Notes: generated by a model from the sequence alone, not told the origin. Shown: positions 265 to 59,113, numbered from the stretch's first letter. The stretch: DNA of 64,000 bases from Stegostoma tigrinum (GCF_030684315.1 NC_081365.1:35491394-35555393); one strand, 5' to 3'. Translations and numbers: made by a program.

Positions 265-551
265 GATAGCAGGAACTGCCAATGCTGGAGAATCTGAGAT
301 AACACGCTGTGAAGCTGGATGAACACAACGGGCCAAGCAGCATCAGAGGAGTAGGAAAGCTTGACGTTTCGGGTCGGGACCCTTCTTCAGAAATGGGGGA
401 GAGGAAGGGGATTCTGGAATAAATAGGGAGACAGGAGGAGGCGGATAGAAGATGGATAAAAGTAGAAGATAGGGTGAGAGGAGACAGACAGGTAAAAGAG
501 GCGGGGTTAGAGCCAGTGAAGGTGAATGTAGGTGGGGAGTTGGGGGGGATA
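265..551 (-). mobile_element. Penelope-like element 3' fragment with hammerhead core
   Basis: Homologous to the 3' end of the PLE at 44290-44648. Minus strand 363-390 reads CTGAAGA-AGGGTCCCGACCC-GAAACGTC. TSD ggatggtttc(c/t)aga at 251-264 and 552-565. Confidence 0.85.
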
Positions 552-1235
552 GGATGGTTTCTAGACTTGTATTGGAGGGCGTTAGAGCAGGTACTGAGAA
601 TGGTTGATTTTAGCAGACTTCAGTATTCTCCTATGTCCTCTGGGTATTCCCAAGATAGAGTTTTAGTAAGTGAGGTCAGTAGATGTCACATAGTAACCAT
701 GTCACCTAGGGTCTTGATGTTGAACCTTGACTGAGTCTGCTTCTTCTGAACCCTCCTCTTTTGGTGTAGTCTGATGGACATTGTAGAACAGATAAGGTGG
801 TGATCAGTCTAGCAGCCATCTGAGCCGATCATAGCTTTGGTGACATTCATGTCCCGAAGGTCCTTGCAGCAAAGAATGACATGCTCAGTAAGGTGCCATT
901 GTTTTGAGTTGGGTACTTCCAAGATGCTTTGAATTTGTTTTTCTGATAGAAGAGTGTGTTTGTGTAGGTGAGGTTGTATTCAGTGCATTTTGTGAGAAAA
1001 AGGACTCCATTGGATTTGAAATTGCCAATACCTTCCTTTCCAATGGTGCCATTCTAATGGTTGTGGCCCCACCAACACTGGCATTGAAGTCTCCCGGAAG
1101 AATTATCTTCTGCTCCTTCGGGGTGCTTGTTGTCAGTATGTTAAGATTGGCATAGAAAATCTTCCTTACTTCCTCTTCTGGGTCAAGGGTTATGGCTTAA
1201 GTACTCACAACTATAGCCATCAGATTAGAACATAC

Positions 1236-1541
1236 GGCATGGTGGCTCAATGGTTAGCGCTGCAGCCTCACAGTGCCAGGGACCTGGGTTCAATCCAGCC
1301 TTGTGCGACTCTGTGTGGAGTTTGCGCATTCTCCCCGTGTCTGCGTGGGTTTCCTCCGGGTGCTCTGGTTTCCTCCCACAGTCCAAAGATGTGCACGCTA
1401 GGTGGATCAGCCATGCCAAATTGCCCGTAGTGTTCAGGGGTGTGTGGGTTATGAGGGGATGGGTCTGGGTAGGATGGTTCAAGGGGTAGTGTGGACTTGT
1501 TGGGCCAAAGGGCCTGTTTCCACACTGTAGGGAACCTAATC
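1236..1541 (+). mobile_element. tRNA-derived V-SINE (HE1-like)
   Basis: A box TGGCTCAATGG, B box GGTTCAATCC, V-SINE core (GTGTGGAGTTTGC..TTCTCCCCGTGTCTGCGTGGGTTTCCTCCGGGTGCTC), CR1/HER1-like tail. 9-bp TSD agaacatac at 1227-1235 and 1542-1550. Confidence 0.9.
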
Positions 1542-1550
1542 AGAACATAC

Positions 1551-1845
1551 AGAACTGTACAGGCTCTTTGGCCCACGCTGTTGTGCTGAACTTTTATCCT
1601 AAACTTAAGGTCTATCTAACCTCCATCCCTATGCCTATCTAATTGCTGCTTAAATGCCCCTAATGAGGCTAACTCCACTACCCTCTCCAGCAATGCATTC
1701 CACACCCCTACCACTCTCTGAGCAAAAAACCCACCTCTGACGTCTCTCCTATATCTACCTCCACTCACTTTAAAACTATGCCCCTGCGTAATAGCTACCT
1801 CCAACCTAGGAAAAAGTCTGGCTGTTCATTCTATCTATACCTCTT
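1551..1845 (-). mobile_element. CR1/HER1 LINE 3' fragment
   Basis: ORF 1616-1804 (TQGHSFKVSGGRYRRDVRGGFFAQRVVGVWNAL) is the CR1 ORF2 C-terminus, followed by the CR1 3' UTR. Confidence 0.85.
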
Positions 1846-3774
1846 GTTGGTGAACATCAGACAGATGGTCAAACAATCCCACAGGAAGTTCAGAGAGGCA
1901 ACTGATGAGCTGGTTCTTAATTGTGAAAGAATTCTGGGCTCATCAGCTGGCTTTCCTTGTCAGAAGAAGGAATAACCACCTTTTACCTTCTTCAGTTGCC
2001 CTTTGTCTGTAAAGGTGGGTTTCAGAAAGACTAGCAAGATTGACCTGGCATTTCTTTAGTTCTCTGGCTATGATTACAGTTCTTCTCTCAGTTCAGTCAT
2101 TGTTAGCTGGGTCCATCAGGGTTCTTACATTCCAGGCTCCAAAGTTTATTATTCTTTACTTCTGACCACATATGGGTGATTCCTCCGGATGTGGTAATTC
2201 AATCATGCGTTTTCAGGCAGACTATTTTTAGGGCATCTTTTCCAGCCCTTTACTGAGGTGAGCACAGCAGATCTTAAACAGGACCTGTTTTGAGGAAGGG
2301 TTACTAGATCTGAAACATTCCAATTTCTCTCCACAGATGCTGCCAGATCTGTGTTTTTCCAGCAATTTCTGCTGCTCAGTCGTGGGCACAGTTGTTGAAA
2401 TGCTCTACCTGCTTCATCCAGAGCAAGACAACTGAATCTGACACCCAAACCTAATGTGTCAGTTTGTGATTAGGGACTTGCAGATTTCACAATCCTGCGC
2501 CCCCCTCCGCTGCTAGCTGATCACCATAGGACTATTGTCTGGGATGTAAATAGAACTGGTGCCTCTTGGGAGGATGCCTGTGGGTGGTATTTTTTTAACA
2601 TGGGGAAGCTGGTGTACAGACAACCACCACATGAACTTTGGCAGATAAGGGTCAAACCCAGTGGCATGGAGACCAAGGTGATTGACAGCCGTTTCTGTTG
2701 TAGCTTACATTTATTTGCCTTCACAACCATTGTGGTGCAGTAATTTAAGTTCAGCTATCAGCCTCTGCCTGATTCACTGCTGAAGTCTTCATGAACCGCG
2801 TTTTGTTGGGAACCTACCCCTTGATCTGACTGTCACGGGTAACCCTTCAGGAGCTACTTTCCAGAAGGTTTAGCTTTCGGGTTCCTAGGCATACACAAGG
2901 CTCTCCACCGTCACCACCCCCCACCCCCCAAAAACAAGGTGTGATCCTTGGAGAGGTTATGTAATAATATTATGTAATAACTACTGTCAAACCATCTATC
3001 CTTCCCTGCAAAAAATAATTTCAGGTTGAGTCATATTCAAGAATATTAATGTTGCAGATTTTTAAACAAAAGTTTAATTTTTTCTGCTTCTGTTTTTCCA
3101 TTAACCCTGTATCTTTGTACAAGAAGCAAAATAATTATTCAAAATGTATTTTATATTCACTAATTTTGTGTCAAATGAAGATTCTTCAACAGATTTGTTG
3201 AATACTCTTTCTTTGATTTCTCTGCTCACAGATGTGCTGAGATCAAGTAGATGTGGAGATTACTAGTAATCTCATTTGCTTTTATCTTGTGCTCTAAGAC
3301 AATTACCTGTACATTGAATACTGTCTGGACTATTGTTGGCTGTGGATATCTGCAATATACACTGTCCCTGAGGATGCTTGCTCCTTATCATTAACAAGGC
3401 TCTTCATCTGTAAACACTATTTACATCCGCACATAGGAAAAGAAAACTACAATTCATAAACTATGCTCATTCTAAGATGGTATCTCTTACTGATGCCACA
3501 GTCATATGTTCAATTGCATCGTGATATACATAAATCTCATCATACCACATCACTGACAAGCCTGCTAGAGGTCCACGGATGTGAAAGGTGCACAGTAAAA
3601 GTTGTTCCTTCACTGCTAACAGCAAAATCCATTTCATGGAATTTCTGAAGCAGAAAATCCTATTCTGTGATCTGCGTCACTGTCAAGCTAATTTATTTGT
3701 GTCAACTAGATGTTTTATAAATTTAGAACCTGCTATTGTAGAGGATGCTGTCACTTTTTGTGGCAATTTGTCAT

Positions 3775-5515
3775 CTTACCATATTATGTATTGACTCATC
3801 TGTGCATGGATGGCATCACCGGTTTCTACTCAGATCCGCTGTCAGTGCATAGACTCATGAGCATCTGTAACCTGTTTGAACTGGCTTTGGGAGCTAAGGT
3901 AAATCAAGGCAAGAATGACACCATTTTCTTTGGGAGCTGGGCCACTGATCCTTTTAGATCCTTCACTGTCAGATCAGATTATCTGAAGATGCTAGGTATA
4001 TGGTTTGGAGGGGCCCAGGGGCATGTGCCAAAACTTGGGAGGAGTGTATTGCCAAGGTGTGATGGAAACTAGAGCAGGTGGGAACACCCATTGAGGGTAA
4101 AAAGCTAGACATCCGGTGTGAGGCACTATTTTTCTTGTTGTATGTGGCACAGGTCTGGACTATTCCCCAAGCCTGTGTCATTGCAGTTACCCAAGTCGTC
4201 TTCCATTTCACCTGGAGATCAAAGATAGACCATGCCCAAAGCTCTGGAAAAACAGGGGAAGAATGTATCCAACTTGATCCCACCTTCATCCTAATGGCCA
4301 CCTTTGTGTGTGGCTGCAGCAAACTGTGTGCAGACCCTCAATTTGTAAACACTGAATTTCACTAAGTACTGAGGTTCTACCTGTTCCCCATGTTGCAAAT
4401 GATAGGTCTGGCCTCATTGCTGTGGAATTCTCCAAGTAATTGGACAACTCTGTTTTACCTGTTCCCCATGGAAAAAATCTGCAAAGGAAACATCTTTGAT
4501 CACAAGTCCATCAGATAGTGTTCATGTAGCATCCCAGACGCTGTGGGAAAAGGAAAGAGCTGATTGATTTGGATAGTTTCTTGAGCAGACAAGTCATTTG
4601 GCAGAATGCCTCCTCATCAGCACTTTCCAACAGCATCTAGATGACGCTTGGCTGGTGGTAATAAGGGACATTCTCCACCACCATACTGCCCTTGAAGCGG
4701 CTGTGGCAATGAGGAGGTACAAAAAAGCAGACAGTCACATCTCCTGGAATGTAGAAAGAGGTGTGAAGCGTGATGCAATGGTTTTTGTCAAGGTTCATTC
4801 TGAGTGATGAGAAATCTGCAACCTCAGGGTGCACAACAAGATCAATTTCAACTTTGCTTGGAAGACCATCAACTGAGTGAAAAATGCTCTTTGTTCTGCC
4901 TGAAACCTGATCTTCCTGTGCAAAGATAACAAAGTGTGAAGCTGGATGAACACAGCAGGCCAAGCAGCATCTCAGGAGCACAAAAGCTGATGTTTCAGGC
5001 CTAGACCCTTCATCAGAGCTCTGATGAAGGGTCTAGGCCCGAAACATCAGCTTTTGTGCTCCTGAGATGCTGCTTGGCCTGCTGTGTTCATCCAGCTCCA
5101 CACTTTGTTATCTTGGATTCTCCAGCATCTGCAGTTCCCATTATCTTTTCCAGTGCAAAGAGTTGAGTTTGACCGATTTGTTGTAGACCGGCACATTCCG
5201 AGGTCCAGGACTATGTGCTGAGGGACGCACTAACGCTTGGACCGTCTGTTGCGAAGGCATGTTGGGAAAAGACCACCCAAGGTCTTTCTGTCAAATTTAA
5301 ATGGGGGTTCATTCAGTTATCAGACCCTCTCATTGCCTTGAACATATGTAAATAGTGTCCTGCATGAATAAGAATACCTTTGACATTTGCAACCGCAGGG
5401 AACATCAGATCCAATGCTTGTTTATCTTAATATGCAAAGACTGTACAAAACTGCTTTAGTACCTGTGTACAAAGACATTTTTTGAAGTGACTAAACATAT
5501 TTTTGCAATAAAAAT
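3775..5515 (+). mobile_element. Decayed Tx1/L1-clade LINE, RT C-terminal part and 3' end
   Basis: LCMDGITGF.SDPLSVHRLMSICNLFELALGAKVN..LKMLGIWFGG resembles the Tx1/L1 RT (YMDD-region derivative). Many stops; ends at AATAAAAA near 5508. Interrupted at 4926-5147. Confidence 0.7.
4926..5147. mobile_element. Palindromic PLE-derived mini-element with two head-to-head hammerhead cores
   Basis: Inverted repeat with 96-bp arms 4923-5018 and 5019-5114 (about 2 mismatches, no spacer), plus a 33-nt tail on the right. TSD ttcc(t/a)gtgcaaag at 4913-4925 and 5148-5160. Confidence 0.9.
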
Positions 5516-5863
5516 CATTACCTGTTGACCTATCATGCGCTATACCTTCAAGCTAAAATATGGTGTGTCAGCACGCATGCTAAAAAGAAAGTAGTTCTCT
5601 TGGTATGTTGTAATTACTTGTCTTTTATTTTTATATGGCTCTTTTGGCATTTCATTCAAAGATGGGAATCTTATTTTGAAGGTTATATTTAATGTAAGGA
5701 GAATAAACCCGTTTTGTTGGGGCATTCTCTGTCTAAGCAAGTTATATTTCTTTTGAAACTCCTAACCTTTCATGACTTACAACAAACTTCTGCCAATGAG
5801 TTTCTGCAACCAGCAGCTGGGAAATATTGGTAATGGTTTGGTGTAACTTTAACCTGGGTGAGT

Positions 5864-6440
5864 GATAATGGGAACTGCAGATGCTGGAGAATCCAAGATA
5901 ATAAAATGTGAGGCTGGATGAACACAGCAGGCCCAGCAGCATCTCAAGAGCACAAAAGCTGACGTTTCGGGCCTAGACCCTTCTTCAGAGAGGGTGAGGG
6001 TTCTGGAATAAATAGGGAGAGTTCGTCCCCTCCCCCCACTGCACCACACAACCAGCCCAGCTCTTCCCCTCCACCCACTGCATCCCAAAACCAGTCCAAC
6101 CCGTCTCTGCCTCCCTAATCTGTTCTTCCTCTCACCCATCCCTTCCTCCCACCCCAAGCCGCACCTCCATCTCCTACTTACTAACCTCGTCCCACCTCCT
6201 TGGCCTGTCCGTCTTCCCTGGACTGGCCTATCCCCTCCCTACCTCCCCACCTGTGCTCTCCTCTCCACCTGTCGTCTTTTCTCTCCATCTTTGGTCCACT
6301 TCCCCCTCTCTCCCTATTTATTCCAGAACCCTCACCCCATCCCCCACTCTGATGAAGGGTCTAGGCCCGAAACATCAGCTTTTGTGCTGCTGAGATGCTG
6401 CTGGGCCTGCTGTGTTCATCCAGCCTCACATTTTATTATC
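5864..6440. mobile_element. Tail-outward inverted PLE 3'-end element
   Basis: 5864-about 6020 is the PLE 3' end in minus orientation (core 5961-5988). About 6021-6440 is the same 3' end in plus orientation (core 6349-6376). 15-bp TSD ttaacctgggtgagt at 5849-5863 and 6441-6455. Confidence 0.9.
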
Positions 6441-8176
6441 TTAACCTGGGTGAGTTTGGGTTTGGCTAAGAGCTTAGATGTTAAAGCTTGAAATGCCAAA
6501 ACACACTGTCTCACTAAAATTTGGGGGCCAACTAGCTGAACACACAGTAGTGGGGTGGGGGTGGGGGGGAATCCAACTCATTTCCAGGCGCTGGATTGCT
6601 ACTTAAACATGCTAATGAGGTTAAAAGCTTCAGGTTTAATTGTGGGGTATGGGTTTCCATACACTGGGAATTCCAGCAAGACATGAAAGCCTCAGAAAGG
6701 CAAGTGCCTCCAGTGTGTACACTGTGCACATGTGCATGGAGAGGGAGAAGGAAGGAGAGAGAGAAAGAGATCAGAACTGTTTTATCTACACAACCCCAAT
6801 ATCTCCAGACAAAATCATACTTTGGGTTGGACTCTTTTGGATCCTCCTGGATCAGATCCTTTCCCTAGTGTCAGAATGAGGCACCTCTGGAATTGCAAGA
6901 CTACTTGGGATCAGGACTTTGACTCTCTGCACGAGTTGATGACTGGATGGCTTAGTCCTGCGGCATCATCCAGGATTTTCACTGCCCAGCAGAAAGCGAG
7001 CCTTTTGATCAATTAATTACTTTCCAGTGGAGAATCTGTTTGGGTCAAATGTTACATCAAATCCAGATTTGGATTTTCTCATGAGCTATTGGACTTCTCC
7101 AGCAAGTAAAAGTTTCCTCCAGTACTTCAGCTTAGAGACTTGACAATGAAAGCTTAGGTCAAATTTGTGTCCTCGCTTTCCAACAATTGTTAGCAGTATA
7201 AAGTTTTAATACGGTTATGATTTTGGACTCTTTAAGGTAAAATGGAAGGAGGAAGAAGTTCGTATGACCTGGTCAGAATGCTGAACAATTCAGTGGCTTG
7301 GGTTGCTGTGGAGATGAAAGGGTCCCTAAGTCAAGAGGTTTGTTGAGGAGGTACTAGATATTCATATCCATTGTAGAAAAGCAAGAGCAGCTGTGCTGAC
7401 TGAGGAGGCTGTTCATCTCCAAGTCTCACATGGCAGTGTTAGGAATATTAGGCCTTAAATGGTTAATTTAAAATCTGTTTAATTTCAAGTTAGAATGCGG
7501 TTGAGGTCTAGAAGATAGCTAATTGTCAATTCGCCCTGCATATGTCTGGCATGATTCAAATTGTCACAGAAATGACTTTGAGAGGGCAAGAGTCCGCAGA
7601 AAGTCATTGTAGGATTGTTCTTAACATAACACATCACTGAACTGCTCAGACCAAAGTCGGTCTGCAAAAAACAGAGTAAGAGGGGATAGCAGGAATATAG
7701 CGTTGGCTATCCTGTACCTGAAGCAGAGAAAAATGATGATTCTCCTGTTCATTATACAATGCAGGTGGGAGCTTTCATTCTGATCGAAAAGAATGCATTC
7801 GTGAGAATTTAAAAGGAGAATGGAAGATTTACTTAGGGGCAGTTAAGAGTCAACCACATTACTGTGGGTCTGGAGTCACATGTAGGCCTAACCAGGTAAG
7901 GACAGCAGATTTCCTTTCTTAAACAAAAAGGACATTGGTGACCCAATACAGTCTTATGACAATTGACAATAGTTATGTGGTCACCGTTGTGCTAGTTGTT
8001 TTGATACTATAGATAGTGAAATTTGAATTTTGTCAATCTATAGTAAGGGATTTGAATCAATGTCTCCAGATCATTAGCCTGGGTTCTGAATTCCCATTTC
8101 CACAATGCCATCACCTCTCCCTTTTACTTAGTCCGTTTAATGCAAAGGCGAAAGTTCTTTAAACAAGTGTTTTTAC

Positions 8177-8397
8177 CTCATGGGCATGTTTAGAGAATGT
8201 CTCTGCACTCGCCATCATAGCTGCAGTTCGGTCCTCCAGTTCACCCAGTCTCTGTCCACGTTCATCCAAAGCAATCCGAGCACGGGCTAGATCTCCAACA
8301 ACCCCAGAGGCTGCACCTTTAACTCCCTCAAGTCCACCAGGTCCAGGGATATGCTGAGCAAGAGTCCGAGATGCCTTGCCTGCTGAAGCTTCACCAA
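8177..8397 (-). CDS. STXBP5L: STXBP5L (tomosyn-2) coding exon, R-SNARE motif (penultimate coding exon)
   Basis: ttaag|TT..GAG|gtaaaa, 221 nt, phase 1 to 0. Encodes (F)GEASAGKASRTLAQHIPGPGGLEGVKGAASGVVGDLARARIALDERGQRLGELEDRTAAMMASAETFSKHAHE, the tomosyn VAMP-like domain. Confidence 0.97.
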
Positions 8398-11300
8398 CTT
8401 AAGAGTAAAAATATTAGGAAAATATATTTACTAGAGGGCTTTCAATATTCCAGAAAATAAATGTCTACATTTATTTTGGCCAGTGGTAAAACTTGCAGCT
8501 GGACTTTAGGTTTTCTTAATTTCTCCTGCAGTGTGTATCGGCATGTCGTGTAGAAAGCCACATCAAAAGGTTTAAGTAATTAAGTGGACACTGCATATGT
8601 TTTTATTGTCTTGATATTTGAAACAGTAGCCAAAGTAAATTTGTAGGTTGATTCTAGTATTTACGATAATGAAGCATTTTTAGCAAGAAATGCCAGATTT
8701 TTAGGGGATGATGTGTAGTGGAAATATCACCAGGGTAGTAACCCAGAGGCCAAGGGAAATGCTCTGGAACACAAATTCCGATCGCAGCACAGCAGCTTAA
8801 ACTCCAGTAATAAATATGGAATAGGGCGATTAGCATCCTATACATCACCATAAACATTCATTCTTTCCATCACAAATCTACAAGGCGTGCAGTATAATGG
8901 ATTACCAGATTCATTGTGGTAACTCATTGAATGTCTTTCCACAACATCTGTAAAACCCATTACCTCCATCACCATGACAGACAACAGCAGCATTCATTTG
9001 GGAATGTCAACTCATGCAATTTCCTCTCCATGCCACAAACACACATACACACATTATTCTGACATTGGAATTATAACTGTCATTGTTACCAAATTAGAAG
9101 CTAAAATTCCTTAACAGCACAAAGGATGTACCCACAATACATTAACTGCTACAAGTCAGGGTGGTGTTTTACTACAATTTAAAAAAAGCAGCAAAAATGT
9201 TATTTTGAGGGCCAGGGAATCTGGACAATGGACAATTAGATCTGTTAAAAATATATATTTTTCAATTAGGTTACAGAATCAAAGCAGTATACAAAGTAAG
9301 ATAATTGACATCTGTCTGAGGAAATCTCAAAGCATTCCACATGGTCATAGAGATGAAGTGAGGAAGAAAAATATTTTAATTTAACTGAGTGTTTGCTCAT
9401 AAAGTAGGAAATTCTAGTTTTTGTATGCTATAGACTGTAGCTCACTGGAACAAGGTGAGCCAAAGGAAACCAATGTTAGTCAGATTTTCATTTCAAGACG
9501 AGAAAATACAGACTTTGTTGCTCACTGTTTAATGTGAGTGAGGTTTGGAATTGGAGGTGAAAAGCAGCTGGAAGATTTGCCATGTTCAGAGCTAGAAGGG
9601 AAAGCTACAGATATTGTCAGAACTTTGTGTTAATTTGCAGAGAGAAAATAACCACTAAGTGTTGGGAACAGTGGGAACAATGGCAGCACAGAAGCTATAG
9701 GAGCATGGGCGTTATTAGGGAATAGCTCTGTTCCTCGTTTTAAAGCACAAAGCAAAAATACAGTTAAATAAAACAAAGAACTGTGAATGCTGGAGATCTG
9801 AAACAAAAATAAGTTGCTGGAGAAACTCAGCAGGTCTGACAGCATCTGTGGTGACAAAACAGTTAATGCTTCAAGTCCAATGATTGTTCATTGGAATACA
9901 ATTAAGCCTAAATTTGAGCTGAAGAGTCCATGTACTGAAGATTTAAAAATAATTTTGAAGATTGCATAGTCAAAAGTTGTTGCAAGGAACCTCATGAAAT
10001 TTTATACCTCCAAATGCTAAGGAGAATCTAAATTAAATTTCAAAGGGTTGTGACATATTTTGAGGGTTTCCCAGAAGAAGGGTAATTAACCTTCATAGCT
10101 TAATTCACAGCTTTTAAAATCATTGCATACAATAGCTTGTTTTAAAACCAAGAAATTACAGCATAATTCAGTTAATTACTGGGCGTTTAGATTTCTCCTT
10201 TTAAATATTAGTGGTCATAACAGGATCACAACACCATCGCCTTCATGAAGGCAATTAAAGATGCTGATCACTTATCTGTGAATGAGTTATAAAAGAAATC
10301 CCTTGTCCCTTGACTAACAATTAAACTACCTCTGAAGCCTGCTAGCACTTGATTTGAACATAAGAAATAGAAGCAGGGGAAGACTGAGTCCTGACCTACT
10401 ATTTAGGTTTTATCTTGGGTTCTAACTCTACTTTCTAGATGGTCGTATAAGGGCCTTGATTTAAGGAGAGGCTATAAATCTACATATTTGACTGGTATAC
10501 ATACAATAATGCTGAGAGAGAGGATTCCAAAGATTTTCAGTCCTTTGAATGAAGAAATTTCTCCTAATTAATTGGTTCTTTGTCCTGAAACTTGGCTAAA
10601 ATGGGTGGCTGTACTGCCAATCCTCACACAATTCTGGGACTAGAAATAGTGCAGGTGGGTGGCTGCTAAGAACCAGGTCTTGTTTTTGATACTCCCTCCC
10701 ACTTTCCCCCACACTGCCCAAAACTCAGAAATGACCCTCCAACAAAGCACTTACCAGAAGCCTTGGTTCTCTTGATCTTGGCTATCCTTCTAGTAGCAGC
10801 CAAAGCCATTTTATCAAGGAAAGTGGCATTGAGCTAGGATCTAATTGAATTATTGAGTAAGCTTATAGGCTAAATGGCCTACTGCTATTCCTATGTTGCT
10901 ATATATCTGTCACTTTGAGCATGTAAGAAAGGAACCTAACAAAAATGAACGATTCACTCAACATCTCAGTATCTATCCTGTCAATCCCATACATAATTTC
11001 GAATGTTTCAATGAAAGCATTTCTTATTCTTCTAAACTCTAGAGAACCTAAACCAAATTTACTCACTTCCTCATCATTGAGCAACATGTATCCTGAGAAC
11101 CAATCTTGTAAACCTTCATAATACTACTTTTGAAGTAGGAATATCTCTTATTAAATATGAAAACCTAGTGTCCCACAGGTGTGGTTTCATACTCTGCACA
11201 ATTGTAGTCAGACGTATGTCATACTTCAACCTCTTTATACAAAAAAACCAGCATAGTATTTGTTTTCGTAATTGCTTGCTGCACCTACACTGCAAATTTT

Positions 11301-11650
11301 GTGTGGTCTTTAGAAATCGAATAGATAGCTATCAGAACATTCATTCACAATATAGCAACATGCATACATTTAAAAAAAACACCTCACTTAAAGAAAGGAA
11401 AAGTAAACATAATTAATTTCAGAAGAGGGGAGAAAGGCAAATTGGTACAAAAAAAGGAATATTACCTTTCCATCATTTTATGAAACAAATTTGAATGTAA
11501 ATTTATTCTAATTTTCTTTATCATTTTTAATATTTTTATGGCATGGAATCTTTTGGTTCCTGACCAAAATCAAGTAGAAAAGGAATGTTTACTTGATAAT
11601 AGTTGGGAAATGTCGTGATGACATCTTACAGCACCTTCTGATCAACTTAC

Positions 11651-11762
11651 ATAATTCTTCTCTGTCAAATGTTTGTCCACTTCCTCCAAACAACCCCTTT
11701 AAGAAGCCTCTATTTTGGGCTTCTGGGGTTTCAATTGGGGTAAACAAATCTCCAAGCATTTC
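11651..11762 (-). CDS. STXBP5L: STXBP5L coding exon
   Basis: ttcag|GAA..TTAT|gtaagt, 112 nt, phase 0 to 1. EMLGDLFTPIETPEAQNRGFLKGLFGGSGQTFDREEL; GGSGQTFD fits tomosyn-2 rather than tomosyn-1 (GGGAQSLD). Confidence 0.97.
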
Positions 11763-11879
11763 CTGAAAAAGTGGAAATTTAGTATCAATAACCTCCAATC
11801 TCATGAATAAAGGCGGCAGCTAAGAGAAATGGTATCAATTAGTGATGCTGACTGCCTCACCTAGAGTCCTCACCTTGCC

Positions 11880-13775: not shown

Positions 13776-13779
13776 TCTT

Positions 13780-47500: not shown

Positions 47501-47573
47501 CAACATATTTCTTGTTCCTGGATCTCGTGTCATTGAAGTCAATGGGAAAAATGAAGATGCATACGTGCGCGCG

Positions 47574-47580
<7 letters not shown>

Positions 47581-47616
<36 letters not shown>
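47581..47616. repeat. (AC)18 microsatellite, i.e. (UG)18 in the pre-mRNA, starting at the 5' splice site
   Basis: Direct reading. Preceded by alternating purine-pyrimidine GTGCGCGCGTGCGCGC. Confidence 0.97.
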
Positions 47617-47618
<2 letters not shown>

Positions 47619-47790
47619 TCTGTATGGGTGACAGGCAATGAGATTTCCATGCAGGCTGCTGATTGTGCTTTTCGAAATGGCGGTCGGCCTGGTCCTCGAC
47701 GATTCAGCTTTGAAGTATCAGCGATGGAAAGACGCTTCCCAGTGTTGCAGGGTTGGGAAATAGGACTTGTGCAAACTCCATTGACATGAT
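47617..47790 (-). CDS. STXBP5L: STXBP5L coding exon, hypervariable region
   Basis: tttcag|AT..GAAG|gtgtgt, 174 nt, phase 1 to 1. (D)HVNGVCTSPISQPCNTGKRLSIADTSKLNRRGPGRPPFRKAQSAACMEISLPVTHTE, matching the tomosyn-2-specific segment. Confidence 0.95.
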
Positions 47791-49844: not shown

Positions 49845-49945
49845 GAAGCTTTTCTGATGAAGGGTCTAGGCCCGAAACGTCAGCTTTTGTGCTCCTAAGA
49901 TGCTGCTTGGCCTGCTGTGTTCATCCAGCTCCACACTTTGTTATC
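49845..49945 (+). mobile_element. About 100-bp mini-PLE with intact hammerhead core
   Basis: CTGATGA-AGGGTCTAGGCCC-GAAACGTC at 49854-49881; ends TTGTTATC. 10-bp TSD acagcaagaa at 49835-49844 and 49946-49955. Confidence 0.88.
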
Positions 49946-52199
49946 ACAGCAAGAATATTCTTTTTAAATTGTACATGGAACAGTTCTGTCAAAAGTTGAG
50001 AAATTCTTTTCTGTCTAAGCTCCATCGCTGACAAAAAAATTAACAGAATTTTGAAAAGTACACTGAGAAGAAAAAAATATGACTAACTGAATTGTGTTTG
50101 TAATGAAGCACCATCTTTAGTGTGATGGCCAAGGTTTCACAACTTCAGATATTCCTTTCAATATCTGCCTGTCACTGCTTAGGTATTGAAGTTCATCAAT
50201 TTGTACTCAATAGTGCACAGAAATGATTTGTGAGCATCCCATCCTTGAAGAAATGTGGGAAAGGGAATTATATGCAGTTTTTTAAAATCATGTTTCACCT
50301 GGACAATACTCAGAAACATAGAAATACTAGCTGTGGGCCATTTGAGTCCTTATCAAATCAATCATGGCTGTTTCCATGCCAACTCCATTTAGTTGTCTTT
50401 GTTGACTGTCACTTATTGAAGAAAAATCAACCTATAGCAGTTTTCAAGTTCCAACTGCCTCAGCATCCACAACGCTGCAAGCAGAATTTCATTACTCAAG
50501 TTTATCTTCATCTTTGAAAGATAACATAAAAGGTAACAGTGTGTAATAAATTACACAGAACAAGTTAACCAGTCAGACAATAACATGTATGCATTTGCTA
50601 GTTCATTCTAAATGATATTTCTGCTTAATGATGTTCAGATCTAATTCCTCTGCAAATGCCAACATTAATCGAAAACTTTCTAATATTTAACAACTTTGTG
50701 ATTTTTAACTTCAAATCCTTTGTCAAGCTAATTAAAATATAGTACAATATCAAGGTTCAGACAATTATTTTAACAAACATTGCTAGTCTGTACAGTAACT
50801 TTTTGGATTGCCATCATTGTATCTTGTATGCAAGTATCTATCACATAATTATCACAAGTTTACATCTTAATTTTTCTCACGATATAATTTTTAAAATCTT
50901 TCAAAGATTTTCACATCTTTGGAATTGTTGAAAATTGGACTGGCAAACTGCTTAAAAATGCATGGCCACCTTCCTAGAATTCACCTAGGCCACCTAGGAA
51001 TTCACTTAACAAATGCAAAGTATGGGGTATTGATACAATGGCTGGCACAGACAAACCTCTCCATGAACATCTCGGGACCTGTATTCAAATGGAGATTTCT
51101 GGATCATTTTGCCAGACAATTGGTGAGAAGCTGCTATCTTCTTTTCATCTCTGCAAAGAAGTTAGCACCTGGTTCCCTCAGAACCAGGTACAGACAAAGA
51201 TTATTAAGCAAGTGAAAATCTTCAGTAGGTGCACGTGTTCGCTATGACTGACTGACTGCATTCAAGAAACCAACTAATTAACATTGGCTCAGAGATAGTC
51301 CTCAGGTTAAAACCTTAGGCTTCAAAGATAACAAAATAGCTCAAAACCGTAACATGTTATTGTCCTTTGTATTAGGCACCCTTCCCTTTTACCCTTGGGG
51401 TGTGTGTATGTGGGCCAGCATGAAGTCTGTATGCTTGACATCACTTTTTTGTTGTTTTCCTCTGATTTCCAGTTAACAAATTTGCTCGCTCTTTTGCTCA
51501 AGAATACCCTTGACTTGTTATTGTTCACAGAAAATAGTTAACTACATTTTTACAGGGGGAGAGGTATAAATATTTCCTTGTAAAAAAAACTTTAAAATCT
51601 TTGTGTCTAACCAGAGTCGGGGAGGGGGGCGCTGGGGGTGAGGGTGTTTGGTGGTGAGCTGAAGAGAGAAGTCAATTCATCCCTTCTCACCTGGTCTTAT
51701 CATTGCAACATTAGAACAAGTTCAGCCTGCTCTGCTGTTCAATGTGATCATGACTGTTCTTCAATTTCATTGCCTTTTACCCACATTATTCCTGACTTCA
51801 TATGCTACATATTTTATACCACACCATTTGGAATTCTCCATACAGGAAAATTTCATGGAAGTACATGTGAAAACCCAATCTGTAACAAATGGTTGAACAG
51901 TACAACCCAAATCATAAAAATTATTGGGCTGAATGATCCTTTATTTTTTGGCTAAGTGTTATTCTTATGGAGTTTCTTTAGTTTCCTGCTATGGCACAAA
52001 GTGACATTTCTCATGCAATGTAGTGCCTTTTTCACACAATGTTCTGCTGCTCACCTAATTAATTTTGCCATCGAGCTCTGTGACGTACTTCTAATTGTAA
52101 TCACAAGATAGCAGAGGCAGAGGCTTACCACTGCTGGTACCTAACAGCGTTCAGGCCACTAGTGCATTATTTAAACCTCAGCTCTGCACCACTTCAATC

Positions 52200-52840
52200 T
52201 GCAAGCGAGGACTGCCTCTCATAGGCTCCAACAGCTTTGTCCCAGAAAGGGAAACTTGCAGCCCGCTTTGCAGAAAGGATGCTGGTGAATGGTACAGTGG
52301 AGGGGACAGCTGTCATCCTTTCTGCTAAGAAGTAAGGAAGGCCACAATACCAGACAAGCCAGAGCCCCAGAGAGTGACCCAAATGCCACAAGAAAGTTCA
52401 TGATCTTCTGTGCAATGCAATGGTAAGTGCCATGATATTCTCTGATACCCCACATTCACTCTCACTCTAATTGTGCTTCTGCACCAAGGCTAACAGTCTA
52501 TAACTCTCTTGCTGTTGCATGTAGCATTTCTACATAAGGCTTTCACGTATACTGTTAACCATTCCTGTCCTCTGTACTTGCTACTCATTCACTTGGGACA
52601 CCTCACTACCTCTCTTGCACCACCAACAGTTCCACCAGCCACATACATCTCTCATTCCCTCCTTCTGTTTCATTACAAGAGAAGACATCACCGAGCTAGG
52701 CAAAGCGGCTAAGATAGGTGGCAGGATGGATGACATTCATGTACTCACCCACTATGAGAAGACCATCCTTAAGATGGCTGAAGAGGACCGTGACCACTCA
52801 TGGTGATGCTGAGATGTCTATGTCCATTGCAACAAAGTAA
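52200..52840 (+). pseudogene. Decayed Harbinger Myb/SANT-like gene (exon-intron remnant)
   Basis: KGKLAARFAER..LVNG..QCHKKVHDLLCNAM|gtaagt, then AKIGGRMDDIHVLTHYEKTILKMAEEDRD..|gtaagc. Resembles the NAIF1-like Myb partner (TGGG-type motif) of Harbinger elements. Confidence 0.6.
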
Positions 52841-55499
52841 GCTTTGTGTGCTGCTCTCCCATTACCACCACTGTGTGTGTATTTCTAAGATGCTCAAGTT
52901 TCTACCCTGCTGTGCACAGCTAATTGTCTCTCTTCTCTTATGCTAGCAGCAATGGCACCCACAAAACCTCCTCTGAAAGATGCCAGCCTCTAGCCCATCA
53001 GTTCCTCTTCTACCTTTGAGGATGAAGCCACAGATCCTTTAGGATGTACTGGCAAGACTTTTTGCTGCATTCTCCACCACCGCAGAGATTTCAGTCACAG
53101 TGATTTTTCTTTCTAAATTAGTCTCAGGAACACACCTGGAACATGTAGTAGCGCATCTCTATAACTGACGGAGAGAGGAAAGCACTCTAGTCTTTGGCAC
53201 TCGGAGGACTGCAAGAAATCAGGCATCTGCACAGCCCCAGGCACAAGATGACTCCATAGTTTTGTCCATTAATAATTTTGTCCAAGTGCATAGATAGTCA
53301 TAGGAACAGCAGGAAAGTTTGTCAGAGACACTCAGTGAAGAAGACTGAAGATTGGAAGAGCCCAGCAACTTTATCAGTACCAATTCTGAAGAAGGATCAC
53401 TGGACCTGAAATGTTAACTCTAAGTTCATCCCACAGATGTTGTCAGACCTGTTGAGTTTTTCCAGCAATTTCTGTTTGTGTTTATTATCAGTACTGTGCT
53501 GGCTCTGTCTGGCTGTCTTTATGGATAATTTGGCAGCTGCTGTGGAAAGCTGAAACCATTGGAATGCACAGAGGCTGCCAGAATTGCATGTAAACCAGTG
53601 ATCTGTTGTTTCAGTCATTGGTGCTTGGCATCAATAGAGTGGGTGGGTGGGTGGTGGTGTTGTGGTAACAAGGAACCTCCACCTCACTCTAGTTGCTGAT
53701 TCTTTTCAAAGAGACCTTCTCCCTGCACATGGAGCTGAGGTAGTTAAGTTTGTAGCAGGGAAGAACAACCTCTCAGCAAGTCTCCGCTTTCTAGTCACAA
53801 ATGCCCAGGGCTACCTACTCAAATCTTCAAAGTCAACAGGCTCCTTCCACCTAGCTTTGGACACCTAGACTATACCTAGACACTGGGAGTGCAAGGAAAA
53901 CAAAATCACTCTGAAGCACATGTAAAGCACAGTGAACACTTCACTTGTACAGACCCTTTCACATCTGCAAATAAATATGCACATAAAGTGTTGAAAAGTC
54001 TAGACTCTCATTTTAACAGTAGGTCCTATTTAAGTGGCTACCATGGTCAAAGTTTATGAAGCTTCTTCGTATCTCAAGGATGACAGAATTTTTTTTATTC
54101 TCTTGTGGGATGTGGGTATTGCTGGCTGTCCAGCATTTATTGCCTATCCCTAGGTGCCCTGGATAGCAGATTTCCTTCCCTGAAAAAGCATCTGTGAACC
54201 AGCTGGCAGTATAATTTGTATGATAATGGTCATGTGGGCCATATACCATCAGGCTAGTTTTTAAGTCCACATTTTATTGAATTAAAATTTCACTACTGGC
54301 CATGGAGGAATTCAAACCCAGAACATTAACTTCCAGTTTTGGATTACTTGTCAAGTAACATGATCTTATGGAACTGCCTGCCATAGGAGAATTTTTGCTG
54401 ACTGTGACTCACTTTGCAGAAGTAGAAACTCAGGTCATATTCAGTACATGGTGGTACAATGTAAACAAAAGGGGTGGACAATAAATACTGGCCTGCCAGT
54501 GATGGCCTCATCCTGTGAATGAATTAGAAAAAAGGACTTTAATCAATATTTCATTCATACCGATGGAAAAGACTGTCTAGAATAATCAGTGTTAATTTGG
54601 TAGAGGAGAAAGCCTCCTCCTGTGTCTGCTACTAAACTATAAAATTTCAGCTTATTTGCAACATCTCCAGATTAATGCTAAATGTGCAGGTGATTTATAG
54701 TACGCACTACATTTCAAGTAGATATAATGCGACAACAACGTTGGGCCATGGAGAACAAGTAATGATGGGTAGAAACCAATTCCATTGAAGAAGCATTGCT
54801 CATCATTGAGAAGTAGAGGAGAACAATGAGGCCAAAGGTAAAGTGAATGCCTTTTAACAGGGCTTCACTTGCACATGTTCCACAATTGTGACCACATTGC
54901 GCATGTGACTGTGTTCACTCCTAATTGCACATTTCTTGAGGGGCAAGGGTCATTGTGTCTTAGAAGGGAATATGCACACATTCATAGAAGTATGACATCC
55001 AATATTCCCTTGACATCCAATTCTGCTTCTTAGTGTATGTTCTGGTGGGAAAAGAGGCGTATAGATTTTGAAGTGAAGCATACTTACATGGTCGAATGAG
55101 TGTGTAATGTGTATGCAAAATTGCAGATGCTGAAGGCTCAATGGAAAGATCTGTCTCAGGATGTCTCTGAAAATGATAACAGTTACAGGAAAACTTACCA
55201 TGAAGCTCTCAGATACAGGATCATGAATGAAGCCTCAGAAGTTAACATTACTTAGTGCCATACATCTTTCAGTTCTGTCTGAAAGACTGCTATTCTTTGT
55301 CTGACACTCATTAGAACATAGAGTCCTCATTCTTAAATATGGGAGTGACACCATATTATGAAGCATTCAGATGGTTGTTAACAGCACTTAGTCACAATTG
55401 AAAAGGCAAAGAGACCGGAAAGAAAAAGCTGCATTTGCTTCTGACACTAATCTGGGTCTGCGTGGCTTTTCAAAAATATAACTAAACTGAAGAATGTCT

Positions 55500-56480
55500 T
55501 CACCCAAATCATGCATCTTGGAAGCAGATATCAGTTAAATTATATTCGGCTTTTTGTGCCTAATGATGTATTGTTCTATCATGCTCAAAGTGATGTTCCA
55601 TCCAGTCAATATCCTCATCTTTATCTTCAGAAGACTGCTGCCACTCTCCCGGCTCCTCAGTGTTCATCACAACCCATCTTTGCCTGCTCCAGTTGTGAAA
55701 AGCAAGGTACACCAGGATTATATAGCACACTCCATCTGGAATGTAGTGCAAGGCAACCCCAGTGTGAGCCATGCACATGAACCTCACCTTGAGGAGCCTT
55801 ACAATCTGTTCCATGACAGCCCTGGTGCATTGTATCTGATCTACCTCATTTGGTTAGTTCTGTAACGGAGTAGTTTATCACAATTGCAGATGGTAGTACT
55901 TGTTTCTCACCAGTGATCCATATTTGGCATTGACTCTTGAAATAAGCAGTGAGTTATCAAAAGCTTCGTGGCAGTTATCAGGATACTTGGCACAAACCTG
56001 TAGGATGTGGTAACAATATCACAGATGTGTTGGACACTGAGCAAGTGGAACCCTTTCCTGTTTAATCTATAGCACACTTCACCTGGGGAAGCTAGCAATA
56101 TTGGAACATTCTACTGCTGGGGCTGTAGCACTGAACTTGTAACAAGCAAAAAAGCTGATGTGTTACCTTGCACAAATTACAGTTGTAACATCCTTGATAT
56201 TTTCATGGGCTGAGGATTAGAAGTTTTCAGACAGTCTCCAGCGGATTCTTTGAATGAGCTAGAAGCTTAAAAATTAAGTGCAGCTATCACCTTGATGGCC
56301 ACCCACTCCTTCAAAATGCAAATGGTACTTCAGCAGATGACAATTCCATATGCTGTCCTGGGGATATCCTCAGTCTGCACCTACGTGTGACTTCATTCAT
56401 CTCTACAGGAAATAACAGCAAGGATGGCAGATTCCATCTTTGCTCAACCTCTTCCGCATCCTGACGAGACCCTTTAATGC
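55500..56480 (-). pseudogene. Decayed PIF/Harbinger (HARBI1-like) DDE transposase
   Basis: Minus-strand fragments AIKVIAALNF*ASSSFKESAGD, NRKGFHLLSVQHICD, ILQVCAKYPDNCHEAF and MEQIVRLLKVRFMC..GVALHY.P..FHN occur in HARBI1 motif order, with frameshifts. Confidence 0.8.
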
Positions 56481-57104
56481 AACTACTCCCTTAGAAGTTT
56501 TGGGGTGGGGGGGGTGGTGTGGTGGTGCTGCTTGACTTTTCTAACTCCTGGATGTGTAGGTTTGCATCAGCAACATTAGAACCTGCCATTGCTAGATTCA
56601 TTCAGCATAGGTGCACTGATCCTATGTGGGAAATATTAGGCAGAGAACAGTTTCTCTGTGATGTGAATCCTGAGCAGTCATCCTAAATGAAAGTGTGGCT
56701 TTATCATAGGTGACAATACACCATGGCATGAAAGGCTCCTAAAAGAAAGGAATGCCAAGCTTTTGCACAAATGTCTAACTAATTCTGTATCAACATGGCT
56801 TCTTACACAACACCTTCCAGACCTTCAACCATTTCCATCTAGAAGGACAAAAGCAGTGGATACATTGGAACACCATCACCTGCAAGTCCTCCTCCAGGCC
56901 ATAGAGCATCCTGACTTGGAATAATATTGTTGATCCTTCACTGATCGTTGGGCAAAATCCGGAATTCCTTTGCTAAGGGCATTATGGGCCAACCCACACA
57001 CATGGGCAGCAGTAGGTCAAGGCGGCAGGTTGCCACCTTCTTCTCAAGGACAACTAAGGACAGGCAATAAATGAGTGAATTTAAAAGAAAAATTCATGTT
57101 TAGA

Positions 57105-57487
57105 ATTTAGAATGTTATGGGCGAACTGATAAAAGTATTCAAAATATTAACAGGAAAAGATAGGGTAGATAAAGTTAAATTACTTCCACAAGTTGGGCAT
57201 TCTAGAGCTAAGGTGTATAGTCTGAGACTTGGGGCCAAGCCTTCAGGAGAGAGGTTAGGATGTACTTCTACACACAATGGGTGTAGGTGTTTAGAACTCT
57301 CTTCCCCAAATGGCAATGGACGCTGGATCAGTTAATTCTTAATCTGAGATCGATACCTTTTTGTTAGACAAAGGTATTAAGATACATGGGCCAAAGGCAG
57401 GTAGAGAGTTAGGCCACAGATAAGCCATGACTTAATTTAATGGTAGAACAGGCTTGAAGGGCTGAATGGCCTGATCCTGTTCCTATG
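57105..57487 (+). mobile_element. CR1 LINE 3' fragment
   Basis: GELIKVFKILTGKDRVDKVKLLP..SRAKVYSL; tail GGGCTGAATGGCCTGATCCTGTTCCTAT. Confidence 0.8.
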
Positions 57488-58452
57488 TGGATGTAAGTAG
57501 TACAAACCTTATTGCAAAACATCATAGAGATATAATTGTGGCAGGATTATTCTTTCATTGTCCAGTTGTTAGAGCACCTAAGAAGTACAACATTGAATAT
57601 AAGAGCCCATATTCTTGCACATTTGCAGTTTAATGCGAGAGTATAGCACCTCCTAGATTTGAGCAGCAATGACACGTTTAAGTGTCTTTGCGATTCGGTC
57701 ACTGGCCATGATTAATAGAATGGTTGTGATTACTTGTTGGTCAATGCATGAGCTGCACATAGAGTAATGTAATGGCAAATTTGTTGTCATTGAATCTATA
57801 GATGATGACTTAATGTAATTGCCCTTTGAAGACCTCACATAACAAACATGTCCACCTCACTACCACCACACCAAACAAAACACAGTTACTACTGTGAATA
57901 TGCTGACAGCTATCTTTCATCCTTATTATGCTGTTGAGGTTCGATCAAAGATGGCAGTTTATCCAGTTCACTGATGGTCAGAATTATCAATCTTCACCCA
58001 TCCTGTTCCATTTTATGTTGTCTTCCTGTCAACCCCATCTGTTTTTGGGCTCCTCCTGTTCAACCCTTTTATTTGGCAGTAAATACTCTTACGTTCTGCT
58101 TCAGTTGCTGGGCCACTGTATTACCATGCCCACTATATTACAATTCACTTTCACCCAGATGAAGCTTAAATGATAGTGACCTGTGAAAACCTGACTGCAA
58201 TTTTTTATGCCCTCTCCTATACTGTATCAGATCTCAACTTTTACATTACCTTCACTGTCATTGTCCCTCAGTGTAATAGAATAACTCAGCTTAGCCCCAG
58301 AGCTGAGTTCCCCATTATTCACTGCACTGCATATGTTGACCACTGAATAGCCCCTTGATGTTTTCTGCCCAAACTCCTAGGACTGACGTGGGCGATCATC
58401 CAATCTGATTTGAGGACTGACTGATCGCTTTAGAGTTCACAGAGTGGCTTAC

Positions 58453-58524
58453 CTGTAATTGCCAGATTGTTTAGACTTGGCCTGCGGGACTGATCCCCTG
58501 GCCATGATTGCACCAAGTGTCTGA
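58453..58524 (-). CDS. Candidate STXBP5L cassette exon (72 nt)
   Basis: ccatag|TC..ACAG|gtaagc, strong donor, phase 1 to 1, open frame (V)RHLVQSWPGDQSRRPSLNNLAIT. The polypyrimidine tract is weak. Confidence 0.4.
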
Positions 58525-59020
58525 CTATGGCCGAGTCCCTGGATTGAGTATGGCAGAATCACCCAACTGACGATTGTCCCCCTTCACACAACTAACAACT
58601 GACGCTGTAAGACTTTCAGACATGGCCATTCGATTTTAGCACTTGTATGGTGTTTGCTGTGCTGGGTCAAAATCCTGGAATTCCGTCCTTAATGGCATTG
58701 TGGATCAAACTGCAGCTGGTGGACTGCAGCTGTACAAGAAGGCAGCTCACTGTCACCTTCTCAAGGGCAACTAGGGATGGGCAAGAAATGCTGGCCAGCC
58801 AGCAACGCCCTTATTCCACAAATGAACAAAAAAAAAGTTGCTGGTATAACACTGTAGATCTGACATTGATGTATTATGCTGCTGCACAGCAACATGTCCA
58901 TCCGTTTGACTGCTCAGTGCCAGTGACCTTGACAAGTTGCCTGGGTTTCTGATGAAGTTTTAATTTTTTATATTTTTTGTTTTTAATTTTAAAATTTTTA
59001 AAAAAATTTTAAAGTTTTTT

Positions 59021-59113
59021 TCTGATGAAGGGTCTAGGCCTGCAATGTCACTTTTCCTGCTCCTAAGATGCTGCTTGGCCTGTTGTGTTCATACAGCTCC
59101 ACATTTTGTTATC
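59021..59113 (+). mobile_element. Mini-PLE with mutated hammerhead core
   Basis: CTGATGAAGGGTCTAGGCCT-GCAATGTC (GAAAC decayed), the standard downstream block, ending TTGTTATC. Preceded by a low-complexity AT run. Confidence 0.8.

What the first reader, a model, noticed from the sequence alone, without database searches (positions are those of the whole stretch)
265..59113. Window-wide system of hammerhead-ribozyme-bearing Penelope-derived elements (at least 2-3 families) inside a synaptic gene
Seen: a minimal hammerhead core CUGANGA-(A)-hairpin-GAAAC-GUH recurs at least 15 times. Intact cores: 363-390 (-), 5961-5988 (-), 35609 (+), 44522 (+), 49854 (+). Variant or decayed cores: about 2290, 4989/5021, 6349, 14800, 19003, 21499, 27163, 30562, 32526, 53386, 59022. 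Stem II differs between families but keeps pairing (GGGUC/GGCCC, GGGUC/GACCC, AGGU/ACCU). One core sits in the 3' end of an RT+GIY-YIG element, tying the short copies to an autonomous partner. Established: PLE terminal repeats carry minimal type I hammerheads that often need dimerisation. Inference: this genome has SINE-like, TSD-flanked hammerhead mini-elements mobilised by a Neptune-like PLE. Minus-strand copies are transcribed in sense within the STXBP5L pre-mRNA and could cleave it.
Basis: partly seen in the sequence, partly recalled or inferred. Interest (0 to 1): 0.8.

Follow-up and report, generated by a model that had tools for sequence, protein, structure and literature searches.

The report
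Shark Penelope retroelement stumps with hammerheads
These scattered ribozyme motifs are the broken-off ends of a known kind of jumping gene, not a control system for the brain gene they sit in, but where the stumps stop may record where the element's RNA starts and where the ribozyme cuts it.

Summary
The window (a shark; STXBP5L introns) holds 21-23 copies of a minimal type I hammerhead plus tail in three families; five cores are intact. The genome holds 119,390 intact-core matches. They are ends of Neptune-clade Penelope-like elements (PLEs), a known arrangement (PMC4209133) that this scan has already reported in other shark genomes. A separate SINE and a role in STXBP5L are unsupported: 111 sense vs 123 antisense copies in two genes, and intact same-strand cores lie at least 4.3 kb apart.

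What I did not find in print is the end pattern. 5' ends pile up at the ribozyme's 5' edge (69 of 149), about 30 nt behind a TATA-like box. In family A they are often preceded by an extra G (83 of 100; 24 of 41 after confounds), as expected from copying a capped RNA start. A smaller pile sits at the predicted cut site (palindromes centred there 42, on an equal 4-mer 5 nt upstream 2). Head-to-head pairs carry the long tail on exactly one arm (38 of 43; never both). Best reading: the minis are run-off cDNAs from internal initiation. In vivo cleavage is suggested, not shown; no RNA data were available.

The parts
41643..44648 (.). Family A Neptune-clade PLE, a single dead insertion with a 5' inversion. 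RT part and linker on the minus strand (41643-43858, in-frame stops); GIY-YIG, 3' UTR, hammerhead and long tail on the plus strand (43859-44648). 14-bp TSD at 41629-41642 and 44649-44662.
   Evidence: (RVT_1 E 1e-6, just under the Pfam cut-off)
44488..44495 (+). TATA-like box of the pLTR, 30 nt before the inferred RNA start
   Evidence: at -34 from C3 in 20 of 29 long family A copies; function inferred
44518..44549 (+). Inferred RNA start (44518, -4) and intact minimal hammerhead core (44522-44549); predicted cut after 44549
44550..44648 (+). Downstream segment that is the 5' UTR of the next unit in tandem copies, with the two 3' end points (short near 44614, long 'tail' end 44648)
264..548 (-). 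Family B 3' fragment with intact core 363-390 and long tail
2287..2375 (+). Family C copy, decayed core
4923..5146 (.). Family A head-to-head palindrome, both arms starting at -2; short-ended arm on minus, long-ended arm on plus; 14-bp TSD with one mismatch; both cores carry the same G16.2-to-A change
5861..6442 (.). Family A head-to-head insertion: intact core 5961-5988(-) with long tail, core 6349(+) with short end; 15-bp TSD
9774..9894 (-). Family C copy, decayed
14720..14830 (-). Family C mini copy starting at about -4
21498..21590 (+). Family B mini copy starting at the ribozyme edge, variant core
27162..27255 (+). Family B mini copy starting at the ribozyme edge, decayed core
30557..30690 (+). 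Family C mini copy
30695..31917 (.). Family C insertion: inverted arm (core 30787, minus), then linker/GIY-YIG remnant, 3' UTR and decayed core at 31818 on plus
32059..32652 (.). Family B head-to-head insertion (cores 32144 minus, 32526 plus); 12-bp TSD
35577..35701 (+). Family A copy truncated at -32, intact core 35609-35636, short end, TSD
48573..48694 (-). Family C copy, heavily decayed
49849..49945 (+). Family A/B mini copy starting at the ribozyme edge, intact core 49854-49881, short end, 9-bp TSD
53385..53488 (+). Family C mini copy
59021..59116 (+). Family A/B mini copy, core broken in GAAA
18960..19015 (-).
   Evidence: inconclusive
1..64000 (-). Host gene STXBP5L: coding exons near 8174-8398, 11652-11768, 14471-14668, 15760-16134, 16745-16999, 22608-22709 and 47549-47803 (tblastn limits, approximate); last coding exon 2.2 kb left of the window; all copies are intronic

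Best explanation
The copies are truncated insertions of at least three Neptune-clade PLE families; positions are given relative to hammerhead C3 = 0. SHOWN in sequence: the full unit is hammerhead - tail - 5' UTR - ORF (ATG at +166; RT, CX4CX2C linker, GIY-YIG) - 3' UTR, and a partial tandem repeats the hammerhead and tail at both ends. Copies end at +91..95 or +125..133, and two-armed insertions carry the long end on one arm only. INFERRED (about 0.65): the pLTR holds a TATA/initiator promoter whose transcript starts at about -4, the first bases of helix I. The RT starts inside the RNA at the two tail sites, one for each cut target end. When it starts in the 5' copy it runs off the capped end after about 95-130 nt, often adding a base opposite the cap, which gives the promoterless mini copies and the palindromes. 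INFERRED (about 0.45): some templates had already been cut by the ribozyme and give copies starting at +28. INFERRED (about 0.4): long copies and short tandem arrays come from templates without that end (circles or read-through multimers). The intronic copies are neutral relics with no role in STXBP5L control (about 0.85).
For: Unit structure in 4 near-full-length loci; linker. 3' end clusters. Head-to-head pairs 38 long+short, 5 short+short, 0 long+long of 43, P about 1e-4. The partner arm is among the closest 10% of copies in 17 of 32 pairs. 5' ends within -9..+9: 69 of 149 A/B copies, 4.1% per base against 0.16-0.38% in the other bins outside +23..+32; 27 of 54 family C copies. 6,146 exact edge palindromes, with arms stopping within about 6 nt of C3. 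TATA-like box at -34 (A), -32..-35 (B, 8 of 12) and -32..-34 (C, 5 of 7). Base before -4 is G in 83 of 100 and in 24 of 41 after removing mirror-prone triplets and 4 microhomology-suspect junctions, P 2e-5 against base composition; control at +28 is 8 of 25. One clean case shows TSD, extra G, then the element from -4. An extra 5' G is read as cap copying for L1 (PMC9341517, passages). Cut site: 14 ends at +23..+32, 3-fold over neighbouring bins, P 0.003; palindromes centred on the 4-mer that begins at +28 number 42, against 2 for the equal 4-mer at +23, of 55 loci. Internal initiation at two sites was shown in vitro for an anole PLE (PMC11167929). No orientation bias.
Against: No RNA data. The extra G is not significant in family C (25 of 84, P 0.29) and was not tested in family B; against the +28 control the family A contrast is only P 0.045. 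Long copies that reach the 5' pLTR stop at the edge in only 2 of 14 cases, so -4 cannot be the end of all templates. The folded monomer has a 6-bp hairpin spanning 0..+29 in A, which could cause RT pausing at +28 without cleavage. PMC11167929 found no RNA-seq reads ending at the cut site and no need for cleavage in vitro. The one mapped PLE promoter (D. virilis) is internal and TATA-less (PMC2377424). The two arms of a pair are not independent (43 of the 69 edge ends are in pairs; solo copies 26 of 65). The downstream tail is about as conserved between families as the core, so 'core more conserved than flanks' holds only for the upstream flank.
Confidence: 0.68

Rival explanations
1. Ordinary 5' truncation with structural or microhomology hot spots: the RT stalls at the folded or protein-bound hammerhead region and the cDNA ends join through short palindromes. 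Neither the RNA start nor ribozyme cleavage is recorded.
For: Predicted hairpin 0..+29 (72); palindromic 4-mer at +28; some junctions use microhomology (1 clear and 3 doubtful of 20); no G excess in family C.
Against: The same sequence is passed without stopping in 12 of 14 long copies and many times within arrays. It does not explain the extra G in family A, the TATA-like box at canonical distance in three families with different upstream sequence, or the 42:2 preference between two equal 4-mers.
Confidence: 0.2
2. One reading: self-propagating SINE-like mini-elements (master copies) mobilised in trans by the PLE.
For: About half of all copies are 95-135 nt units with similar 5' ends; some have TSDs. 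Internally deleted tandem units of 166-362 nt exist elsewhere in the genome and may be true non-autonomous, retrozyme-like templates.
Against: 5' ends vary base by base and junction letters differ between loci. The minis lack the upstream TATA-like box. No shared extra 5' sequence was found among edge copies. Lengths form a continuum up to full length.
Confidence: 0.1
3. Sense-oriented intronic hammerheads cut STXBP5L pre-mRNA and affect or regulate its expression.
For: Two intact cores (363-390, 5961-5988) are in the sense orientation; conserved intronic canonical hammerheads exist in amniotes (PMC6155905, passages).
Against: 111 sense vs 123 antisense copies, intact cores 14 vs 13, over about 0.7 Mb of STXBP5L and STXBP5; no loop in helix III; nearest intact same-strand partner at least 4.3 kb away; density in the window matches the genome average of about one intact core per 27 kb. 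The test is weak for small biases (95% interval 0.41-0.54), and intron cleavage need not be harmful (own knowledge).
Confidence: 0.04

Closest known systems
Minimal hammerheads (min-HHR) in pLTRs of metazoan PLEs (Cervera and De la Pena 2014, PMC4209133; read parts 1-2 of 4, results and discussion)
   Same: Type I, no helix III loop, palindromic 15.2-16.2, extra base between 9 and 10.1, G10.1-C11.1, mostly single truncated copies, opposite-strand pairs 100-700 bp apart, reported in fish Neptune elements.
   Different: Stem II is 4-5 bp and stem I 2-4 bp. Copy number is 119,390 in 3.2 Gb against about 4,000 in coelacanth and 9,000 in Xenopus. Sharks are not mentioned in the parts read. The paper did not map 5' ends.
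PAc, Poseidon of Anolis carolinensis (Frangieh et al. 2024, PMC11167929; read parts 1-2 of 4)
   Same: Two internal RT start sites downstream of the hammerhead give the tail; both target strands are cut and extended; predicted protein dimer.
   Different: Neptune clade here; the tail is non-coding 5' UTR (ATG at +166), not ORF. Genomic ends here point to a capped start and possibly to cleavage, whereas that paper saw no RNA reads at the cut site.
Inverted pLTR and tail insertions of EN+ PLEs (Arkhipova et al. 2013, PMC3846280; Craig et al. 2021, PMC8557442; passages only)
   Same: Head-to-head palindromes, tail on one end, TSDs, TATA and Inr-like motifs noted in a rotifer pLTR.
   Different: They proposed self-priming on an antisense template or EN-mediated resolution. 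Here either arm can be the longer one and exactly one carries the tail, which fits two priming events better.
Animal non-LTR retrozymes (Cervera and De la Pena 2020, PMC7229834, passages; Li et al. 2026, 10.64898/2026.07.22.740005, part 1 of 5 and passages)
   Same: Short tandem units with type I hammerheads derived from PLE pLTRs; found in one chondrichthyan. The 166-362 nt arrays in this genome look like this.
   Different: The copies in this window are monomers or inverted pairs, not tandem arrays.

Membership tests
Minimal type I hammerhead of PLEs | Core C3-A9, G12-A15.1, U16.1, H17 with stem II | tested here: met
   5 strict cores in the window; 0 in 100 simulations; 119,390 genome-wide, reversed-pattern control 0 (52)
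Minimal type I hammerhead of PLEs | Extra base after A9, G10.1-C11.1, palindromic 15.2-16.2 without loop | tested here: met
Minimal type I hammerhead of PLEs | Helix I with covariation between families | tested here: met
   2 bp in A, 2-3 in B, 4 in C with different letters; short, so weak on its own
Minimal type I hammerhead of PLEs | Self-cleavage as a dimer or with protein help | not testable with these tools
   Only indirect: excess of 5' ends at +28
EN+ PLE, Neptune clade | Single ORF with RT then GIY-YIG | tested here: met
   RVT_1 E 1e-6 (20); GIY-YIG read by eye from the translation, no Pfam hit
EN+ PLE, Neptune clade | CX2-5CxxC linker between RT and EN (PMC8557442) | tested here: met
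   CX4CX2C in most natural copies; broken by a stop in the window copy
EN+ PLE, Neptune clade | RT phylogeny within Neptune | not tested
   No reference PLE proteins were fetched
EN+ PLE, Neptune clade | pLTR by partial tandem, inverted copy, 30-40 nt tail on one end | tested here: met
SINE | Defined 5' end from a master with its own internal promoter | tested here: not met
   Variable 5' ends and junctions; the promoter-like box lies upstream of the minis; no Pol III A/B box seen by eye (consensus recalled)
Non-LTR retrozyme | Two or more tandem units, each with a hammerhead | tested here: not met
   None in the window; met by other loci of family A, e.g. L145, L157-L161 (54)
Non-LTR retrozyme | Circular RNA intermediate | not testable with these tools
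   No RNA run listed

The most novel reading that the evidence does not exclude
The roughly 100,000 shark copies are a fossil record of PLE RNA ends. One RNA is read by a paired RT from two internal start sites. Capped RNA that begins at the first bases of the hammerhead gives strong-stop-like minis with a cap-derived G. RNA already cut by the hammerhead gives copies that start exactly at the cut site, which would be genomic evidence that minimal PLE hammerheads cleave in the germ line. Cut-and-ligated circles give the more-than-unit copies that regenerate the promoter and the retrozyme-like arrays.
Probability: 0.35. Interest if true: 0.72.

Novelty: new member of a known kind. Interest (0 to 1): 0.42.

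Why it matters
The element type is known. What the hammerhead does in PLEs, and how the tail and inverted ends arise, is described as open in the papers read (PMC8557442, PMC11167929). With over 10^5 copies, this genome allows end-by-end statistics that point to a transcription start at the ribozyme's first bases and to a possible in vivo cut, and it names exact positions to test. At about one intact core per 27 kb the density is high: the axolotl reaches a similar count of canonical motifs (section title in PMC7229834) in a genome given as 28 Gb by Li et al. It also shows that intronic minimal hammerheads are tolerated in either orientation.

Tried and rejected
Rfam: no hammerhead family matched. 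RNA evidence: no RNA holder listed, so expression is untested. Laying four contig sets on 34500-41000 (84) showed no empty allele among the listed joints (549 not shown); it is uninformative on polymorphism. Its best-supported joints land at 35605-35615 and 35637, in line with the -4 and +28 ends, but they pool all genomic copies. A first 5' end count was spoiled by palindromic references and redone. The tail as ORF start is rejected: the frame stops before the real ATG. A 3' splice site at the edge is not supported: no common upstream exon was found. Back-splicing for array junctions is not supported: they show short microhomologies, not a consistent AG acceptor. All templates ending at -4 is rejected (2 of 14). 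Simple fold-back from the long arm is rejected: the short-ended arm is often the longer one (45). A jump onto a ribozyme-cut 3' end: L194 proved to be an insertion with a TSD into an older copy; L181 remains a single compatible case. Extra G from microhomology was tested on 20 of the 28 non-mirror G junctions and explains at most 4 (76). Literature searches listed no paper that maps PLE 5' ends to a capped start or cut site, but the library lacks most subscription papers. Lunse et al. (PMC5785218) was seen only as a reference in PMC6765202. Supplements and Dfam/Repbase were not examined and may already list these families.
Full report
Setting. The window is G000:C14:35491394-35555393 of a 3.2-Gb genome. 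An exon peptide is 100% identical to STXBP5L records named Stegostoma tigrinum and 95-97% identical to whale and bamboo shark records. Seven coding exons lie on the minus strand in the window. The first coding exon is at C14:36.00 Mb and the last lies 2.2 kb left of the window, so every copy is intronic. Positions below are relative to hammerhead C3 = 0; the predicted cut is between +27 and +28.

Observation. A plain pattern search and profile searches confirm the motif. Two profiles find 21 copies in the window at E<=0.01, and two weaker ones appear. A looser test gives 7 against 0 in each of 100 simulated windows. Rfam does not detect them. Genome-wide, one 28-mer occurs 95,889 times, a family-spanning intact-core pattern 119,390 times and a 35-mer of the tail 141,501 times; reversed-pattern controls are 0. 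The window is therefore typical of the genome.

Families and ribozyme anatomy. Families A and B are close; C is older (mean identity to the best reference 0.96, 0.89 and 0.84). All have CUGANGA, an extra A, a 4-5 bp stem II opened by G-C, GAAA, and a palindromic ACGU with no loop. Stem I is 2-4 bp with different letters in each family. This matches the published min-HHR description (PMC4209133), in which monomers were inactive and dimers weak. That is expected if it carries the RT start signals (inference).

Autonomous partner. 41643-44648 is one family A insertion with a 5' inversion and a 14-bp TSD; it has in-frame stops. RVT_1 matches weakly and the GIY-YIG part has no Pfam hit. Natural copies show a CX4CX2C linker before the GIY-YIG motif, the Neptune-type feature named in PMC8557442; no tree was built. 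Four of 19 other loci examined (L078, L080, L095, L096) run 3' UTR - hammerhead - tail - 5' UTR - ORF, with the ATG at +166, so hammerhead and tail mark the pLTR junction. 1,583 exact tail/5' UTR junctions exist.

3' ends. In 722 kb covering STXBP5L and STXBP5 I found 235 copies (reversed control 0). A/B copies end at +91..95 or +125..133, matching the two RT start sites shown in vitro for an anole PLE (PMC11167929). Of 43 head-to-head pairs, 38 have one long and one short end, 5 have two short ends and none has two long ends (P about 1e-4). Either arm may extend further 5'. 23 of 43 pairs have TSDs of 12 bp or more (control 2 of 500), and the partner arm ranks among the closest 10% of copies in 17 of 32 pairs. 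I infer one donor RNA primed from both target ends at two different sites.

5' ends. Of 149 A/B copies scored (152 found), 69 begin within -9..+9. That is 4.1% per base, against 0.16-0.38% in the other bins outside +23..+32. In family C it is 27 of 54 scored (83 found; 29 dropped for weak alignment). Among solo copies alone it is 26 of 65. 6,146 exact palindromes have both arms stopping near C3, with varied junction letters. A TATA-like box starts at -34 in 20 of 29 long A copies and at -32..-35 in 8 of 12 B and 5 of 7 C copies. The bases around -4 fit the TCT initiator in A and the classical initiator in B and C (consensus motifs and spacing recalled, not from a call).

Extra G. If -4 is a capped start, the RT should often leave an extra G, as described for L1 (PMC9341517). 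Among the first 100 of 8,050 family A junctions at -4 the preceding base is G in 83. Dropping 55 triplets that a mirror arm could supply leaves 28 of 45. I fetched 20 of these 28: one is explained by microhomology and three are doubtful. That leaves 24 of 41, P 2e-5 against composition, compared with 8 of 25 at +28 (Fisher P 0.045). L194/L197 shows a TSD, one extra G, then the element from -4. Family C shows no excess (25 of 84 after dropping 16 mirror-prone triplets); family B was not tested.

Cut site. 14 ends fall at +23..+32, three times the neighbouring rate. 3,158 junctions begin at +28. Among 55 listed loci, 42 are palindromes centred on the self-complementary 4-mer that starts at +28, 2 are centred on the equally long 4-mer at +23, and 11 are of other kinds. 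Cleaved templates would give this; so might pausing at a predicted 0..+29 hairpin. PMC11167929 saw no RNA reads ending at the cut site.

Long copies and arrays. Only 2 of 14 long copies that reach the 5' hammerhead stop at its edge (P 0.004 against 69 of 124), so they come from templates without that end. Among 50 fetched loci with the tail/5' UTR junction (30 first matches, 20 chosen by me, some overlapping), many are internally deleted units. Several are tandem arrays of 166-362 nt with TSDs, one junction per locus, repeated in the inverted arm where present. Junctions cluster near -85/+242 but differ between loci; single cases join -4, 0 or +28 to downstream sequence. Rolling-circle copying of circles, proposed in PMC4209133, fits; so does copying of read-through transcripts from existing arrays. 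These resemble animal retrozymes, which a 2026 preprint derives from PLEs.

Host gene. Sense vs antisense within the two genes: all 111:123, solo 52:64, intact 14:13. Intact same-strand cores are at least 4.3 kb apart. Nothing points to selection against, or use of, sense copies. Penelope enrichment in whale shark introns is already reported (10.1101/443036, passages). No RNA run was available.

Earlier notes of this scan describe the same kind of element in other shark genomes, including palindromic minis. A word search for the start-site and cap reading and a sequence search returned nothing.

Verdict. Real, and a new member of a known kind. The added value is the end statistics: a probable transcription start at the ribozyme's first bases, strict one-tail pairing, and suggestive but unproven traces of cleavage in vivo.

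Noticed in passing
G000:C1 loci L145, L154, L157-L162, L166: Tandem arrays of 166-362 nt family A units, each unit with a hammerhead, several flanked by TSDs and with the same junction in the inverted arm; candidate retrozymes arising from the PLE.
   Followed up: partly
L194/L197 (G000:C1:1472090-1472332): A family A mini inserted inside a family C hammerhead, with the TSD ending at that core's cut site; chance or target preference.
   Followed up: partly
L181/L198 (G000:C1:12029600-12029840): A core ending at +26 followed by three letters and a second unit from -4; fits a jump onto a ribozyme-cut 3' end; single case.
   Followed up: partly
window 18930-19200 (-): A different repeat with a CUGAUGA motif and possible longer helix I; a few diverged relatives in the sample; perhaps a fourth, older family.
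   Followed up: partly
window 6349, 32526, 44522 (+): Copies that keep the TATA-like box point antisense to STXBP5L and could drive antisense transcripts.
   Followed up: no
window 4923-5146, 5861-6442, 32059-32652: Head-to-head insertions would form long hairpins in the pre-mRNA, possible editing substrates.
   Followed up: no
window 28022-30330, 13227-13770, 34829-35170, 60939-61019: Fragments of another RT-bearing LINE (RVT_1 E 1e-37 at 28794-29987); CR1-type by recall. In one search its 3' end is often joined to PLE 5' ends elsewhere in the genome.
   Followed up: no
window 1367-1557, 39589-39788, 13809-13904, 20754-20849: Short repeats that look like the shark HE1-type SINE (label recalled).
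   Followed up: no
window 3710-4900: Degenerate coding-like stretch into which the 4923-5146 palindrome inserted; probably another old retroelement.
   Followed up: no
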